Assembly (NCBI RefSeq): GCF_009914755.1
Contig: NC_060926.1
From: the human T2T-CHM13v2.0 reference genome, Homo sapiens
Direction: 5' to 3' (one strand)
Length of the DNA stretch: 64,000 nt
The notes beneath the pieces are model-generated. The model saw only the letters and a list, made by a program, of their open reading frames with translations, was not told the DNA's origin and made no database searches. This document shows positions 1,147 to 16,100 of the stretch, in pieces. The stretch's first letter is position 1. Each line of letters opens with the position of its first letter. Made by a program: the position numbers and the translations under genes.

Positions 1147-4100
1147 GTATTATACTCTCATTCATATTTTGAATAATTAACTGTATAGTCTATGGAATAT
1201 ACTGTAGGTATTGATTATTTTGTTTGAAATCCCACTCAGGATACAAGTGACAAGGATGATTCTGTTTCGAACACAGCCACAGAAATAAAAGATGAACAAA
1301 AATCTGGGACAGGTAATTTTGCAATACACATTTAATGCCATGTACAGTCAAGATAGAGAACTTCCCTTCCCCAAATAAATCAGCAGGGGGCTCATTGAAG
1401 CTGCGCATTCTGATTCAGCGGGCCTGAGATTCTGCATTTGTAATAAGTTCTGGAGTGATGGTGATTCTGCTGATTTTTGGCCATGATCTGAGTAGTAAGA
1501 TTTTAGACTTCCCTACATTGAAATTGGGAAGAAGAACAATTGGAGAGCAGTTCAAGATACAAGAGTCTGAGGGGACAGCATAATTTTGCTTTAATTCTAC
1601 AGCATGTCTCCATGAAGAGGGGAAGGAGAACAAGATGAAGTACTAGAAATTATAGGCGCCTGATCACATTGCTAAAACCAGAGGGAAGAAATGATCGTAA
1701 TAAGCCATAAACACTATAGAATGAGAAGTAACAAGACCACTGATGTAGTAATTATTTTCCTCAGGGAAGAGGGATTGTGAGTCAGGAAGAAGGGAAAAGA
1801 AGTTATTTGTTTAATTTTAGGGTTTCTGCTGAGGAAACCTGAGGGAACTCACTTCAGATGTGTTTAGAATGTTTGCATAAAGGAAAATTTGATTTTGGCT
1901 GCTCCAGGAACTACTGGAAGCAGGATAGAGTGCTAGAATTGTGATGAACCACAGTCACCTGTTTCCCCTCTTTGTTATTATTGGGCATCAGAGATATATG
2001 TTTTGTTGTTATCAGTGAGTCAAATGAGATAAATGTAAATATGCATACATTGGCTTTGTTGTTCAGAGAGCTAACTTTTGGACAAAATAGCAATTTAATG
2101 AAAACAGTTTAGTGAATAACATGATCCTTCAAACCAGACTATTTTAGAACCAAAAATAATATTAAATTCTTTAATTGACACCTAAAATATTTATTTTTAA
2201 TTAATATTGGAGTGATTTCCAAATGGAAAACCTTATTCAGATCTAATGCTTGTAGCAACTTTATTTTGTGTAAGTATATCAAATTTGATAATTTTTTATA
2301 CATTTTGATTAGGTTTGTATATAATACCTTGTTCCCATTGGTGACTGACAAAAGTTTCTGAAGGTTAAACCAGAAAATACAAAAGTGTAGGCTCATTATT
2401 ATACCACATGGGTATGAAAAATAATGAATAGCATATAATAGGATTCACCAAACATATATCCAAGCTGACCAATTCAGAACACTTCCACTGAGGAGCTTTG
2501 AAGTGCACGTTCATCTAAAGTGTAATTGTCATTGTGTACCTGCTGGATTGTCCGGCAAGTCAAAGAGCATGATGAATATTTGTAGTATAATTGTTTAAAT
2601 CCTTCTGATGTCTTGTATGAAAGATATGCGTGAACCTGGCTCACTTCAACTTTAACCTTCTGGGTTCAAGTGATTCTCCTGTCTCAGTCTCCTGAGTAGC
2701 TGAATTTACAGATGTGCACCACCAACCTGGTAATTTTTGTGTTTTTACTAGAGTCCGGCTTTTGCCATGTTGGCCAGGTTGGTCTTGAACTCCTGACCTC
2801 AAGTTATCCACCCACCTCAGCCTCACAAAGTGCTGGGATTACAGGTGTGACCCACCGAGCCCTGCCTACATGATTTTTTTTTTTTTAACTTTTTAAAAAT
2901 AAAGATAGCGTGTTTCTGTGCTGCCCAAGCTGGTCTGAAATGCCTGGGCTTCTCAAGTGATATTTCTGCCTCAGCCTTTTGAGTAGCTGAGATTATAGGA
3001 ACAAGTCACTGTGCTCTTTTATGTTTTTAATATTTTATAGGTTCCTATTGTTGATTTAAAATGCATTTTACTTTTTGTTTAATAGTGCTTCCTGCTGTTG
3101 AACAGTGTTTAAACAGGTATGATTTTACAGATTTTTTAAAGTGATATGTTAACTTAGTTAATAGAGAGAATAGAAACTAGTATCCATTTAGTGTTCTCCT
3201 CTGTGCTAGACACCATATTACATGCTTAATATTTATCATGTCATGTCATCTCCACACAGCTTTACAAATTATTTGTGCTGTTATTGCTTTTTTACTAATT
3301 AGGCAACTCTGCTTTAAAGAGGTTGAAATATTGGCTCATGATTCCACAGTTAACAGGTAGCCAACCGATGATTTGACCATCATCCTGCCTGGCTCTCTAA
3401 TCACTTCATTTGCCCCTAAGCATAGATGGATACAGACCTATGCAGCAATGCGATCACGGTACTGGTGTAACTCAGATCAATTCAGAAAGTCACATTTTGT
3501 TATATATTAACTCTCTTTAGAGTATTTCTTAGAAGCCTAGATACTCCAAAACTTTGTCCAAATATTTTGGAAATGGCAGTGGTAACCATATTACTTTTTT
3601 TTAAACCATCAAAATTTTAAAGGCAGATATCAGTTACCTGTGGCCACAAGACCGTAAGTTTTTTGTAAGCAAGACTAGGCCAGTCCTAGAAAAATATTAT
3701 TTTACTGTGCATGGAGAATACCTAAATATAGACCATGTTATGACAACTATATTTAGCATATATTAAAATGATATTTCTAATTCATGTCTCTACTTACTCC
3801 CTACCCAGTTAGGTTTTCTCTTTAAGTGAGCACCCTGCCTAGTTTGCTGAAGCTTTTTCTTATTTTGTGGATTCTTCTTTTTTCCTTCTATGACATTTTA
3901 GTATTTTCTTGATTTCTTTTCACTTTCTCTACCACTTTTCTTAGGGTTTAAGATCTTCTTTTATAGTTTTCATGTATGGCAGCTAAATATTCCCCATTTT
4001 CCTATAGACACAATCAGAGGTGCATAAAATTTCAGAATGTTAAGAAATCCTAGAGACTAAACAAAGTATCCTCTAGTGCTTGAATCCTTGCTTAACATCC

Positions 4101-13100: not shown

Positions 13101-16100
13101 TGAGAATGATGATTTCCAATTTCACCCATGTCCCTACAAAGGACATGAACTCATCATTTTTTATGGCTGCATAGTATTCCATGGTGTATATGTGCCACAT
13201 TTTCTTAATCCAGTCTATCATTGTTGGACATTTGGGTTGGTTCCAAGTCTTTGCTATTGTGAATAGTGCCGCAGTAAACATACGTGTGCATGTGTCTTTA
13301 TAGCAGCATGATTTATAGTCCTTTGGGTATATACCCAGTAATGGGATGGCTGGGTCAAATGGTATTTCTAGTTCTAGATCCCTGAGGAATCGCCACACTG
13401 ACTTCCACAATGGTTGAACTAGTTTACAGTCCCACCAACAGTGTAAAAGTGTTCCTATTTCTCCACATCCTCTCCAGCACCTGTTGTTTCCTGACTTTTT
13501 AATGATCACCATTCTAACAGGTGTGAGATGGTATCTCATGGTGGTCTTGATTTGCATTTCTCTGATGGCCAGTGATGGTGAGCGTTTTTTTCATGTGTTT
13601 TTTGGCTGCATAAATGTCTTCTTTTGAGAAGTGTCTGTTCAAGGACATACATTACTCTTTCGAATTCTGAATAAAAATCCTTTCTCCAGGTGTTAAGTTG
13701 CTGGAATTTTATTGGTTTTTGTTTTTTTTTCCTCTCTCTCTCTCTCTCTCTGTTTGTAGTAAGAATGTTTCAGCTTTCAGGTGAATGATCATGGTTAATT
13801 CTTGGGATGTGTTATTTTATAGTAAACAAATTAAACTTTTTATTACATAAGTATTTACACAAAACAAATTGTCGAATAAATGCTAACCAGTATTATTAGG
13901 CATATATTATGAACACAAGCTTTTCTTTTAAGCTCATATTTGATTGACTGGTCATGTCTCTTTTTTTGTTTGTTGCTCCCTCCTTCCCCTTTGTTTAAAA
14001 ATAACTTACCTCAGTCTAATATTTTCCTTGCAGACCGCATGTCTTTAGTGTCTATTCTTTCATTTCACCTCTGTTTCTGTTGTCAGGATACTTAGTTACA
14101 ACTTTCTATTTAGTAACTATGTGTGGCCTTCATTCATGAATCATTGCTCCATAAGGTGGATGGTTGCTTTGTTCTGTCTTTTTTGGAAGGAGCGGAGGTT
14201 ATACAATAATTTGTTTTTAGCTTTTGACACACAGAATAGAAGCAACTTACACTGTTTAAAGATAGTACTACTAAAAACTACATTCTCACATTTTTTCCCG
14301 CAGAAAGTAATTCACACAAATATATATCATGCCTAAGTATTTTGAAAAATAAAGTGATTAATTGACTTTTTATTATTAGTTTTGTTCAGTCATACTCTAA
14401 ATTACAGATGAGTAAATTTTTTTCCCAGTTTGTTGTGGTTAATAAAAGAAACTAATGGATATCATAGTATTTGTATAATAACTCAACTGGGGTTGAAAGG
14501 AGTAACATTTTGAGAATATCTGTATCACCAATCATAATCATCATCCCATGTGAATATGTAGATAAGTAAATGGCAGACTTGAGGTTTGAATCTACATATG
14601 AGTGACTTCAAAGTCCATCCTTTTTGTGTTAGATCATGTAGTAATGGTGGCAATTATCATTATTTTAACTTGCTGCATGTTATTCTTAAACCTATTGTGT
14701 CTTCTAGAATATTTCAGAACCATACTTTACGAACAGAAGGACTATTTCTCAACAATCTGCAGAAAATTGTAAGCTATTTGAAACCTGACTATTATATTAT
14801 CTACTGAATCTTTTTTTTTCTTTCTTTTTCTTTCTTATTTTTTGTAGACAGAGTGTTACTCACTGTTGCCCAGGCTGGAGTGCAGTGGCATGATCTTGGC
14901 TCACTGCAACTTCTACCTCCTGGGTTCAAGTGATTCTCCTGCCTCAGCCTCCTGAGTAGCTGGGATTACAGGTGTGCACCACCACACCTGGCTATTTTTG
15001 TATTTTTGGTAGAGATGGAGTTTCACCATGTTGGCCAGGCTGGTCTTGAACACCTGACCTCATATGATCTGCCTGCATTGGCCCCCCAAACTGCTGGGAT
15101 TAAAGCTGTGAGCCCCCACACCCGGTTCTTATTTCTTGATTCTTAATTACATGCATTTCATCTACTCTTGACTTTGTTTTTACTGTAGTAGATGCTGCAT
15201 GTGGCATTGACAAAACAGAAAATGGAAACATGTTTGAAGACCAAAATGTTGATAAGGTAAATGAAGATGTGGTTAAAAGCCAACATAGAATAATCAGAGT
15301 CCAGTCCTGTTCACCAACTCACTCTTATCTGTTAATGATCTTTAGTTTTACAATGGTAAATTGTTTTATTTGGAAAATATTTTTCCCGTGCTTTATTCAC
15401 TTGCCATCTCCCTGTCTTTATAACGATGACAAGGATCCTATAAAGGAATGGAAGTTCTCAAGGTAATAATAGAAAAGAAGTGTGACAACAAGGGAAATGT
15501 ATGCATGGGACTAGGATTCCTAAAAGGTCATGGGAGTAAATGATTCTTAGGTTTGCCATTAGGGAAGGAAAGAAGTAGAAAGCAACCTGAAAGAACAGCT
15601 CCACAAATACAAAGGTGAGGAGGGGAAAGAAGTAAGAATACAGAGTTGAATAAGAGTGTCAAGATGACAAAGATTAGTATAAAACACCTCAAAAACAGTG
15701 AATTTAAATGACAGTAGAATGTCTCCATATCAAATTATAGAATTATTTTAAATATAGATTAAGAAAAGAAAGCCAAGTAATTGAAAAATTCTCAGATTCT
15801 TCTGAGTGACTTACGGGTGATTTTAATAAAGGATTGGAAGAAAATTTATGGGTGACTGTATTTAACATTCTGTTTTACATTTAAAAATAGCCAGGAGAGA
15901 ATAACTTCAATATTTCTAGTTTAAATAAAACATACATATTTAAGGTAATGTGTATCTCTGTTACCCTCATTAGATTATATAGATGGATCAAATCATCACA
16001 CGTACACTGAAAATATATGCATCTATTTATTAATTTAAAAATTCTAAATGGAAAGAAAATTTCATCCTCACTTTTTTAAATTTCAGTAAAGTGATGTCTT

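What the first reader, a model, noticed from the sequence alone, without database searches (positions are those of the whole stretch)
3086..14768. Duplicated exons diverged ~4x faster than their introns, almost only non-synonymously
Hand count, copy A vs B: 31-nt exon 7 differences, 67-nt exon 13, 61-nt exon 17, total 37/159 (23%). These change 27 amino acids, with only one purely synonymous codon (GAT/GAC) and no stop or frameshift. Adjacent intron differs by ~5-6% (6/93 before the 67-nt exon; 4/76 plus an indel before the 61-nt exon). This reverses the normal pattern and resembles strong diversifying selection as described for primate core-duplicon genes such as NPIP/morpheus. An alternative is gene conversion that homogenises introns but is purged in exons, which also implies selection.
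Basis: partly seen in the sequence, partly recalled or inferred. Interest (0 to 1): 0.82.

Follow-up and report, generated by a model that had tools for sequence, protein, structure and literature searches.

The report
ANKRD36 duplicated exons that outran introns
Two tandem copies of a three-exon block inside the human ANKRD36 gene differ about three times more in their exons than in their introns, which points to an old burst of protein-changing selection of a kind already reported for this gene family.

Summary
Every hand count reproduces: 7/31, 13/67 and 17/61 exon differences (37/159), 27 of 53 residues changed, one purely synonymous codon, no stops. Over the whole aligned intron the divergence is 351/4856 = 7.2%, so the ratio is 3.2x, not about 4x.

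Nine further loci in the same genome carry A- and B-type exons. By parsimony, the excess sits on the branch between the duplication and the dispersal of the paralogues: 25/159 exon changes against 131/4766 intron changes, 5.7x. All later branches look neutral: 23/159 against 629/4766.

Single-unit relatives on chr10 (taken to be ANKRD26), chr7 and chr9 show that the acceleration is specific to the ANKRD36 lineage and began before the duplication.

The excess stops sharply at the splice sites and lies in codon positions 1 and 2. dN/dS is 2.0-3.1. Gene conversion explains little.

Best reading: past positive selection on this 53-residue cassette, not an ongoing NPIP-like process. Accelerated exon evolution has been published for ANKRD36B (PMC3906575). 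No other primate genome was available.

The parts
2899..8592 (+). Unit A of the tandem duplication (three exons and their introns)
   Evidence: Direct repeat families D2-D20 with spacing 5380-6250. The global alignment is in register. Homology to single-unit relatives starts at 2899.
3086..3116 (+). Exon A1, 31 nt
   Evidence: AG/GT splice sites; 7/31 differences to B1.
5895..5961 (+). Exon A2, 67 nt
   Evidence: AG/GT splice sites; 13/67 differences to B2.
8480..8540 (+). Exon A3, 61 nt
   Evidence: AG/GT splice sites; 17/61 differences to B3. The six acrocentric and Y copies share a stop codon here.
8593..9022 (.). Junction repeat between the units (an Alu-like element plus an extra partial one)
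   Evidence: In the three-way alignment with the left (2568-2864) and right (14828-15125) elements, it follows the right element, including the shared non-repeat flank, for about the first 260 columns, then is mixed. The name Alu is recalled from the consensus and was not given by a tool.
8915..14827 (+). Unit B of the tandem duplication
   Evidence: Homology to single-unit relatives starts at 8915.
9105..9135 (+). Exon B1, 31 nt
   Evidence: Three clustered changes are specific to the two chr2 loci.
11276..11342 (+). Exon B2, 67 nt
14708..14768 (+). Exon B3, 61 nt
14828..15125 (.). Alu-like element at the 3' end of unit B, duplicated together with the unit
   Evidence: (family D1/D11). It is absent at the matching place of the chr10 relative, whose sequence runs from the equivalent of 14812 straight to 15129.
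5545..5880 (+). Recent A/B gene-conversion tract in this gene only (partner about 10925-11261 in unit B)
   Evidence: A-B divergence is 0.4% in 5450-5700 here, against 4.4-6.8% in the 7 other loci. Diagnostic sites at 5561-5876 are homogenised in a mosaic, while the exon sites from 5896 onward are untouched.

Best explanation
A block of about 6 kb in ANKRD36 was duplicated in tandem. It carries three short in-frame exons (31+67+61 nt = 53 codons) and the Alu-like element at its 3' end. The duplication happened in a primate ancestor and added a second 53-residue cassette to the protein's central region. These three exons had already been changing about 3.5 times faster than their introns on the ANKRD36 lineage. 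After the duplication both copies kept changing fast, about 4x for A and about 10x for B, until the locus began to spread to a second chr2 site, the acrocentric short arms, chr16 and Y. From then on the exons drifted at the neutral rate. I read the fast phase as positive selection for amino-acid replacement in this cassette. The rates, the timing relative to the paralogues, the lineage specificity and the exon confinement are shown. That the cause was adaptive protein change, and the absolute dates, are inferred.
For: (1) The pattern appears in 8 of 8 loci that hold complete A and B units: exon 31-37/159, intron 7.1-7.8%, ratio 2.5-3.2.
(2) Parsimony by branch gives the A/B branch 25/159 exon vs 131/4766 intron changes (5.7x, Fisher P = 1e-11), and all later branches together 23/159 vs 629/4766 (1.1x).
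(3) The relatives examined on chr10, chr7, chr9 and chr18 each showed a single unit collinear with both A and B, so the duplication is specific to ANKRD36.
(4) ML branch lengths on one fixed topology, intron/exon: ANKRD36 stem 0.157/0.546, A stem 0.018/0.073, B stem 0.013/0.127, chr10 relative 0.146/0.076. The path from the outgroup node to the present A or B copy is 0.20 in introns and 0.66-0.73 in exons. A/B conversion cannot alter this measure.
(5) Exon and intron divergence are similar between outgroups: chr7-chr10 25/98 vs 0.306, chr9-chr10 32/98 vs 0.300.
(6) The boundary is sharp: the 30-nt flanks differ at 3/118 sites, the exons at 20/98.
(7) Codon positions 1 and 2 differ at 31/106 sites (P = 1e-11 against the intron rate), position 3 at 6/53 (P = 0.18).
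(8) dN/dS for A vs B is 2.0-3.1 by four methods here and 2.5-7.4 in the chr2 paralogue.
(9) On the A/B branch, non-synonymous changes are 22.5 against 3.3 expected (P = 1e-11) and synonymous 2.5 against 1.0.
(10) Both copies are derived: at 21 fixed exon differences the chr10 state equals A at 8, B at 6 and neither at 7.
(11) CpG sites do not explain it: 4 of 37 exon and 21 of 351 intron differences lie at CpG.
Against: dN/dS > 1 is not significant on its own. It rests on 52 codons with about 2.5-5 synonymous changes, and a rough binomial done by hand gives about 0.05-0.14.
The synonymous rate is nominally 1.9-2.5 times the intron rate, though not significantly.
The exon differences are clustered: 13 clusters against 17.8 +/- 2.1 under random placement, P = 0.019. 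Eight codons carry two or more changes. Multi-nucleotide mutation events are known to inflate dN/dS (recalled).
There is no sign of continuing selection. On the chr2 lineages there are 13 exon changes against 9.3 expected (P = 0.15), which is significantly fewer than a 3.3x rate would give (P = 0.0002).
The neighbouring exons show little or no excess against outgroups (ratios 1.2-1.4, not significant, for 3 of 4 comparisons). The 15-unit 29+73-nt exon array has exon 0.158 vs intron 0.146. So the gene's central region looks weakly constrained in general.
No other primate genome, polymorphism data or expression data could be examined.
Confidence: 0.6

Rival explanations
1. The duplication is much older than the introns suggest. 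Gene conversion kept the introns alike, while conversions that touched the exons were removed by selection. This is the reader's alternative, of the kind recalled for the X-linked opsin genes.
For: One real conversion tract exists in this gene, at about 5545-5880. It ends 19 nt or less before exon A2 and leaves the exon's diagnostic sites untouched. Conversion before the dispersal of the paralogues would shorten the intronic A/B branch, and this cannot be excluded for that branch alone.
Against: Intron trees place all A copies and all B copies in separate clades with 100% support. In this gene, 141 of 145 diagnostic sites in copy A keep the A state. A-B intron divergence is even across the 8 loci, 7.1-7.8%. 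The flanks next to the exons are less diverged than the intron average, not more (3/118). Third codon positions are near the intron level (6/53). The path from the outgroup node to A or B is 3.3-3.7 times longer in exons, and A/B conversion cannot cause that. Both units end in copies of the same Alu-like element, which is absent from the chr10 relative. That bounds the duplication to primate time (Alu age is recalled).
Confidence: 0.1
2. A mutational cause without selection for protein change: a few complex or multi-nucleotide events, or some exon-targeted mutagenesis, happened to fall in these exons.
For: The differences are significantly clustered (P = 0.019). One cluster in B1 specific to the chr2 loci can be read, by eye, as a paired 2-nt insertion and deletion (alignment). 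Intronic hot patches of up to 18 mismatches in 61 nt exist.
Against: All three exons of both copies are affected, and the excess stops at the splice sites. It recurs on three separate branches: the stem, A and B. It is skewed by codon position in the annotated frame. No stop or frameshift arose in either chr2 locus. The pseudogene lineages show no excess. I know of no process that targets exons of 31-67 nt.
Confidence: 0.1
3. Selection acted on the RNA or DNA rather than on the protein. After the duplication, divergence of the twin exons was favoured because it reduces mis-splicing between the cassettes or unequal recombination.
For: The largest excess follows the duplication (A/B branch 5.7x). 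The splice-site flanks stay conserved.
Against: The acceleration began before there were two copies (stem 0.157 vs 0.546). The codon-position skew points to the protein level. About 6 kb of 93%-identical intron remains as a substrate for recombination.
Confidence: 0.07
4. Loss of constraint only: neutral drift of a dispensable, disordered segment.
For: Recent branches and the neighbouring exon array evolve at about the intronic rate.
Against: Neutral drift cannot exceed the intronic rate. The observed excess is 3-6x, with P from 1e-9 to 1e-11.
Confidence: 0.03

Closest known systems
Accelerated exons in primate segmental duplications (Lorente-Galdos et al. 2013, Genome Biol 14:R9, PMC3906575). 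I saw the abstract and text passages. The supplements were not seen.
   Same: The criterion is the same: exon divergence significantly above that of the flanking introns. The Discussion names ANKRD36B with NPIP and GYPA as a gene family showing this. The paper finds 55% of such exons in duplicated sequence.
   Different: That study compared human and macaque reads against the human assembly, exon by exon. It excluded families with tandem protein domains. As far as the passages show, it does not describe the intragenic A/B cassette, its timing or the ANKRD26 comparison. It inferred acceleration on the branch to humans, whereas here the excess predates the dispersal of the human paralogues. I could not see which ANKRD36B exons it flagged.
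NPIP / morpheus on the chromosome 16 core duplicon (details recalled; named as the positive control in PMC3906575)
   Same: Duplicated copies whose exons differ several times more than their introns, mostly through amino-acid changes.
   Different: As recalled, the NPIP excess lies between dispersed copies and arose in African apes. Here, dispersed copies differ neutrally (1.1x), and the excess lies between two tandem cassettes of one gene and on the stem before them.
Intron homogenisation by gene conversion in duplicated genes, for example the X-linked opsins (recalled)
   Same: Introns are more alike than exons, and one conversion tract stops at an exon edge.
   Different: Conversion is rare here. 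The A and B intron clades are clean, and the exon excess shows up in outgroup path lengths that conversion cannot change.
Tandem exon duplication as a way of lengthening proteins or creating alternative exons (general knowledge, recalled)
   Same: An in-frame multi-exon unit with kept splice sites, single in the related genes examined.
   Different: Both cassettes are in the selected RefSeq transcript (annotation supplied with the finding). That is not how mutually exclusive alternatives would be annotated. Splicing was not tested here.

Membership tests
Tandem intragenic exon-cassette duplication | Two adjacent homologous units, each with the same exons in the same order and frame | tested here: met
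   The units align in register with exons 31/67/61 nt in both. 159 nt makes 53 codons, and the frame is open.
Tandem intragenic exon-cassette duplication | Single unit in related genes (outgroups) | tested here: met
   The chr9, chr18 and chr7 relatives have one unit within 25 kb each. The chr10 relative has one unit followed directly by the sequence that follows B.
Positively selected duplicated gene of the NPIP type | Exon divergence significantly above intron divergence between copies | tested here: inconclusive
   Met for A vs B (37/159 vs 351/4856). Not met between dispersed paralogues (23/159 vs 629/4766).
Positively selected duplicated gene of the NPIP type | dN/dS significantly above 1 | tested here: inconclusive
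   Point estimates are 2.0-3.1. dN against the intron rate gives P = 4e-9, but dN against dS alone is not significant with 52 codons.
Positively selected duplicated gene of the NPIP type | Acceleration in great apes or humans, shown on a primate tree | not testable with these tools
   No other primate genome is held. The intron clock places the excess before a paralogue split of about 4.8% divergence.
Intron homogenisation by gene conversion | Introns of the two copies group by locus rather than by copy type | tested here: not met
   The A and B clades each hold all 8 loci, with support 100 and 1.000.
Intron homogenisation by gene conversion | Silent exon sites as diverged as replacement sites | tested here: not met
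   Position 3 differs at 6/53 sites, positions 1 and 2 at 31/106. dS is 0.10-0.16 and dN 0.32-0.34.

The most novel reading that the evidence does not exclude
The 53-residue cassette of ANKRD36 was the specific target of a long adaptive episode. It began before the tandem duplication, continued independently in both copies, and stopped at about the time the locus started to disperse. The same exons in the chr10 relative stayed under mild constraint (exon/intron 0.5) and the neighbouring ANKRD36 exons drifted. That would mark the cassette as an interaction surface caught in a past conflict, for example germ-line or pathogen-related, and the duplication itself as part of the adaptation.
Probability: 0.3. 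Interest if true: 0.55.

Novelty: new member of a known kind. Interest (0 to 1): 0.4.

Why it matters
ANKRD36 is a poorly understood, copy-number-variable gene in a duplication-rich part of chromosome 2. Three results bear on how it should be studied:
- One defined 53-residue cassette went through a strong, lineage-specific burst of replacement.
- The burst predates the spread of the paralogues.
- The segment now drifts.

Together these tell where to look for a function, and they caution against reading present-day variation there as adaptive. The case also shows that the paralogues and older relatives inside a single complete genome can date an exon acceleration and separate it from gene conversion. 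The general phenomenon, and this gene family's place in it, are already in print.

Tried and rejected
- A first pairwise alignment that included the flanking Alu-like elements gave intron divergence of 8.5% (443/5185). The end windows, at 22-27%, are different repeat copies, so I used the trimmed 16-unit alignment instead.
- Merging mismatches within 3 nt into single events gave an exon/intron density ratio of only 1.63 (P = 0.096). I rejected this as a test, because at 23% density random mismatches merge by chance. I replaced it with a random-placement simulation.
- The chr9 and chr7 relatives give no usable alignment for exon 3, because the aligner placed an Alu-like stretch there. Those columns were masked, and the comparisons used exons 1+2 (98 nt) for those two.
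- The two chr16 loci lack A3 and B1. They were left out of the 16-unit alignment and of all counts.
- The chr18 relative was dropped from the tree because it is 5.5% from the chr9 one.
- The three-way Alu comparison did not give a clean crossover point. Unequal crossing-over between repeats is therefore only plausible.
- Homology of exon A1 to the 29-nt repeat exon was checked and not found. Only 4-751 matches 1883-2629.
- Polarising the A/B differences with outgroups that are 44-55% diverged in exons is noisy.
- Literature searches listed no paper other than PMC3906575 whose title or abstract start bears on exon acceleration in this family.
- The spliced protein was not sent to domain, disorder or structure tools.
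Full report
**Observation**

The window lies inside ANKRD36.
- Ungapped comparison gives 7, 13 and 17 differences, 37/159 in total. All six exons have AG and GT at their edges.
- Only one frame is open through all 44 annotated exons of the window. In it the first base of the 31-nt exon is codon position 2.
- In that frame 27 of 53 residues differ, one codon differs silently (GAT/GAC), and there is no stop.
- Direct-repeat search and global alignment show that the whole block of about 6 kb is duplicated in tandem, with the exons in register.
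- Over the trimmed alignment the introns differ at 351/4856 sites (7.2%), so the exon/intron ratio is 3.2, not about 4.
- None of 4312 purely intronic 159-nt windows reaches 37 mismatches; the maximum is 22.
- CpG sites account for 4 of 37 exon and 21 of 351 intron differences.

**Paralogues in the same genome**

The window's own genome could be searched.
- The 67-nt exon with its flanks finds 20 strong matches, two at each of 10 loci. These are the window, a second chr2 locus about 1.3 Mb upstream (probably ANKRD36C by recalled position, not verified), chr13, 14, 15, 21 and 22 short arms, chrY, and two on chr16.
- After fetching them, 8 loci hold complete A and B units. The two chr16 loci hold A1, A2, B2 and B3 only and were left out of what follows.
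- In 8 of 8 loci, A and B differ at 31-37/159 exon sites and at 7.1-7.8% of intron sites.
- Intron trees put all A units and all B units in separate clades. Inside each clade the two chr2 loci group against the six acrocentric and Y loci.
- The six acrocentric and Y A3 copies share a stop codon, so that lineage is a pseudogene control.

**Where the excess lies**

Parsimony on 159 exon and 4766 intron columns without gaps gives these counts.
- The branch joining the A and B ancestors carries 25 exon and 131 intron changes (15.7% vs 2.75%, ratio 5.7, Fisher P = 1e-11).
- All later branches together carry 23 exon and 629 intron changes (14.5% vs 13.2%, ratio 1.1). None is individually significant.
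- Three exon and 17 intron sites needed multiple changes and were not assigned, as were 5 parallel intron sites and 39 ambiguous intron cases.
- On the two chr2 lineages alone there are 13 exon changes against 9.3 expected (P = 0.15). That is far fewer than a 3.3-fold rate would give (P = 0.0002).
- ANKRD36 against its chr2 paralogue gives dN/dS of 0.5-0.9 in 6 of 7 estimates that ran and 1.8 in one.

So the excess is old. It predates the dispersal of the paralogues.

**Older relatives**

Weaker matches led to loci on chr9, chr18 and chr7, and a search with the 61-nt exon led to chr10:27.10-27.12 Mb. From recalled map positions I take the chr9/chr18 group to be ANKRD20A-like and the chr10 locus to be ANKRD26.
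- The chr9, chr18, chr7 and chr10 loci each hold a single unit collinear with both A and B at about 70% identity. In the chr10 and chr7 loci the unit is followed by the sequence that follows B in ANKRD36.
- The exons have the same lengths and the same open frame.
- Against the chr10 locus, A and B differ at 70-74/159 exon sites (0.44-0.47) but at 0.264-0.269 of intron sites (P from 1e-7 to 3e-6).
- Between the outgroups, exon and intron rates are alike: chr7-chr10 25/98 vs 0.306, and chr9-chr10 32/98 vs 0.300.

ML branch lengths on one fixed topology:

| Branch | Intron | Exon |
|---|---|---|
| ANKRD36 stem | 0.157 | 0.546 |
| A stem | 0.018 | 0.073 |
| B stem | 0.013 | 0.127 |
| chr2 A stem | 0.014 | 0.017 |
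| chr2 B stem | 0.018 | 0.048 |
| acrocentric A stem | 0.018 | 0.035 |
| acrocentric B stem | 0.019 | 0.013 |
| chr10 relative | 0.146 | 0.076 |
| chr7 relative | 0.156 | 0.227 |
| chr9 relative | 0.171 | 0.373 |

The acceleration therefore belongs to the ANKRD36 lineage. It started before the duplication and went on in both copies. At 21 strictly fixed exon differences the chr10 state equals A at 8, B at 6 and neither at 7, so both copies are derived.

**Selection or something else**
- The excess stops at the splice sites. The 30-nt flanks of exons 1 and 2 differ at 3/118 sites between A and B, against 20/98 in the exons and 250/3611 in the far intron.
- In the annotated frame the 37 differences fall 20/11/6 on codon positions 1/2/3 (P = 0.017). 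The chr2 paralogue gives 18/11/5 (P = 0.024). The pseudogene loci are flatter.
- Position 3 (6/53) is not above the intron rate (P = 0.18). Positions 1 and 2 (31/106) are (P = 1e-11).
- NG86, LWL85, YN00 and ML give dN 0.32-0.34, dS 0.10-0.16 and dN/dS 2.0-3.1. The other two frames give 0.3-0.5 and contain stops.
- On the A/B branch, non-synonymous changes are 22.5 against 3.3 expected from the intron rate (P = 1e-11), and synonymous 2.5 against 1.0 (P between 0.08 and 0.26).
- These results fit selection for replacement.

They do not prove it, for three reasons.
- With 52 codons, dN against dS alone is not significant.
- The differences are clustered: 13 clusters against 17.8 +/- 2.1 under random placement, P = 0.019.
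- Eight codons carry two or more changes, and multi-nucleotide events are known to inflate dN/dS (recalled).

**Gene conversion**
- One tract is clear. In this gene only, A and B are nearly identical at about 5450-5700 (0.4%, against 4.4-6.8% in the other seven loci). Diagnostic sites from 5561 to 5876 are homogenised in a mosaic, while the exon's sites from 5896 on are not.
- Otherwise 141 of 145 diagnostic sites in copy A keep the A state.
- Conversion before the dispersal could have shortened the intronic A/B branch. It cannot change the path from the outgroup node to A or B, which is 0.20 in introns and 0.66-0.73 in exons.
- Both units end in copies of one Alu-like element with the same non-repeat flank, and the chr10 relative lacks it. 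The duplication therefore followed a primate-age insertion (age recalled). Neutral divergence since then could not reach 23%.
- The middle element follows the right-hand one for about 260 columns and is then mixed. Unequal crossing-over between repeats is plausible but not shown.

**Is it gene-wide?**
- Other ANKRD36 exons against outgroups give exon/intron ratios of 1.26 (13/40), 1.19 (36/101) and 1.43 (23/68), all not significant, and 1.75 (47/101, P < 0.001). The last is for a repeat exon pair whose orthology is uncertain.
- The 15 units of the 29+73-nt exon array differ by 0.158 in exons and 0.146 in introns.
- The central region as a whole looks weakly constrained. The duplicated cassette is the extreme case.

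**Dating (inference)**

Intron distances are about 0.085 for A-B, about 0.048 for chr2 against acrocentric copies, and 0.015-0.02 between the two chr2 loci. Against recalled primate divergences, the duplication falls around or before the split from Old World monkeys, and the end of the fast phase well before the great apes. Rates in duplicated regions are uncertain.

**What is known**

PMC3906575 compares exon and flanking-intron differences genome-wide. It finds 74 accelerated exons, 55% of them duplicated. In its Discussion it names ANKRD36B with NPIP and GYPA as such families (I saw the abstract and passages). Searches for ANKRD36 with selection, duplication, family names, acrocentric and rapid evolution listed no other title or abstract start that bears on the question.

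**Verdict**

The cause is most likely a past, cassette-specific and lineage-specific episode of positive selection, not an ongoing one. It is a further, well-dated example of a kind already described for this family.

Noticed in passing
window 12784-13645 (intron of unit B); L031+L036 (chr9 relative) at the matching place: An element of about 860 nt, present in unit B of the two chr2 loci, is 85-96% identical per 100 nt to an element at the same place in the chr9 relative, while the flanks are only about 65-75% identical. BLAST also gives about 84% blocks over the same stretch in the chr18, chr2:95.34 Mb and chr3 relatives. The element has no counterpart in unit A or in the chr7 relative in the BLAST tables. 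The acrocentric and Y B units are about 750-830 nt shorter. This suggests transfer between family members or a repeated insertion at one site. It is unexplained.
   Followed up: partly
L015-L026 (chr13, 14, 15, 21, 22 short arms and chrY); L027-L030 (chr16): The six acrocentric and Y copies share one stop codon in exon A3. The two chr16 copies lack A3 and B1, a loss of 92 coding nt that breaks the frame. All eight look like pseudogenes.
   Followed up: partly
window 36339-62736: In the fifteen tandem units of about 1.87 kb, each with a 29-nt and a 73-nt exon, exons and introns are equally diverged (0.158 vs 0.146; 71 of 105 pairs have exon > intron). This long coding repeat seems to drift almost without constraint.
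   Followed up: partly
window 5545-5880 and about 10925-11261: A recent mosaic gene-conversion tract between units A and B is found only in this gene. It ends within 19 nt of exon A2.
   Followed up: yes
L039+L033+L038 (chr7:39.98-40.00 Mb): A chr7 locus is collinear with ANKRD36 across the single cassette and on into the region matching window 17138-18862. It keeps an open frame in exons 1 and 2 but has no match to exon 3. Its identity was not established.
   Followed up: no
window 1883-2629: A truncated copy (84% identical) of the intron part 4-751 of the 1.88-kb repeat unit ends at the Alu-like element upstream of unit A. It has no annotated exons.
   Followed up: partly
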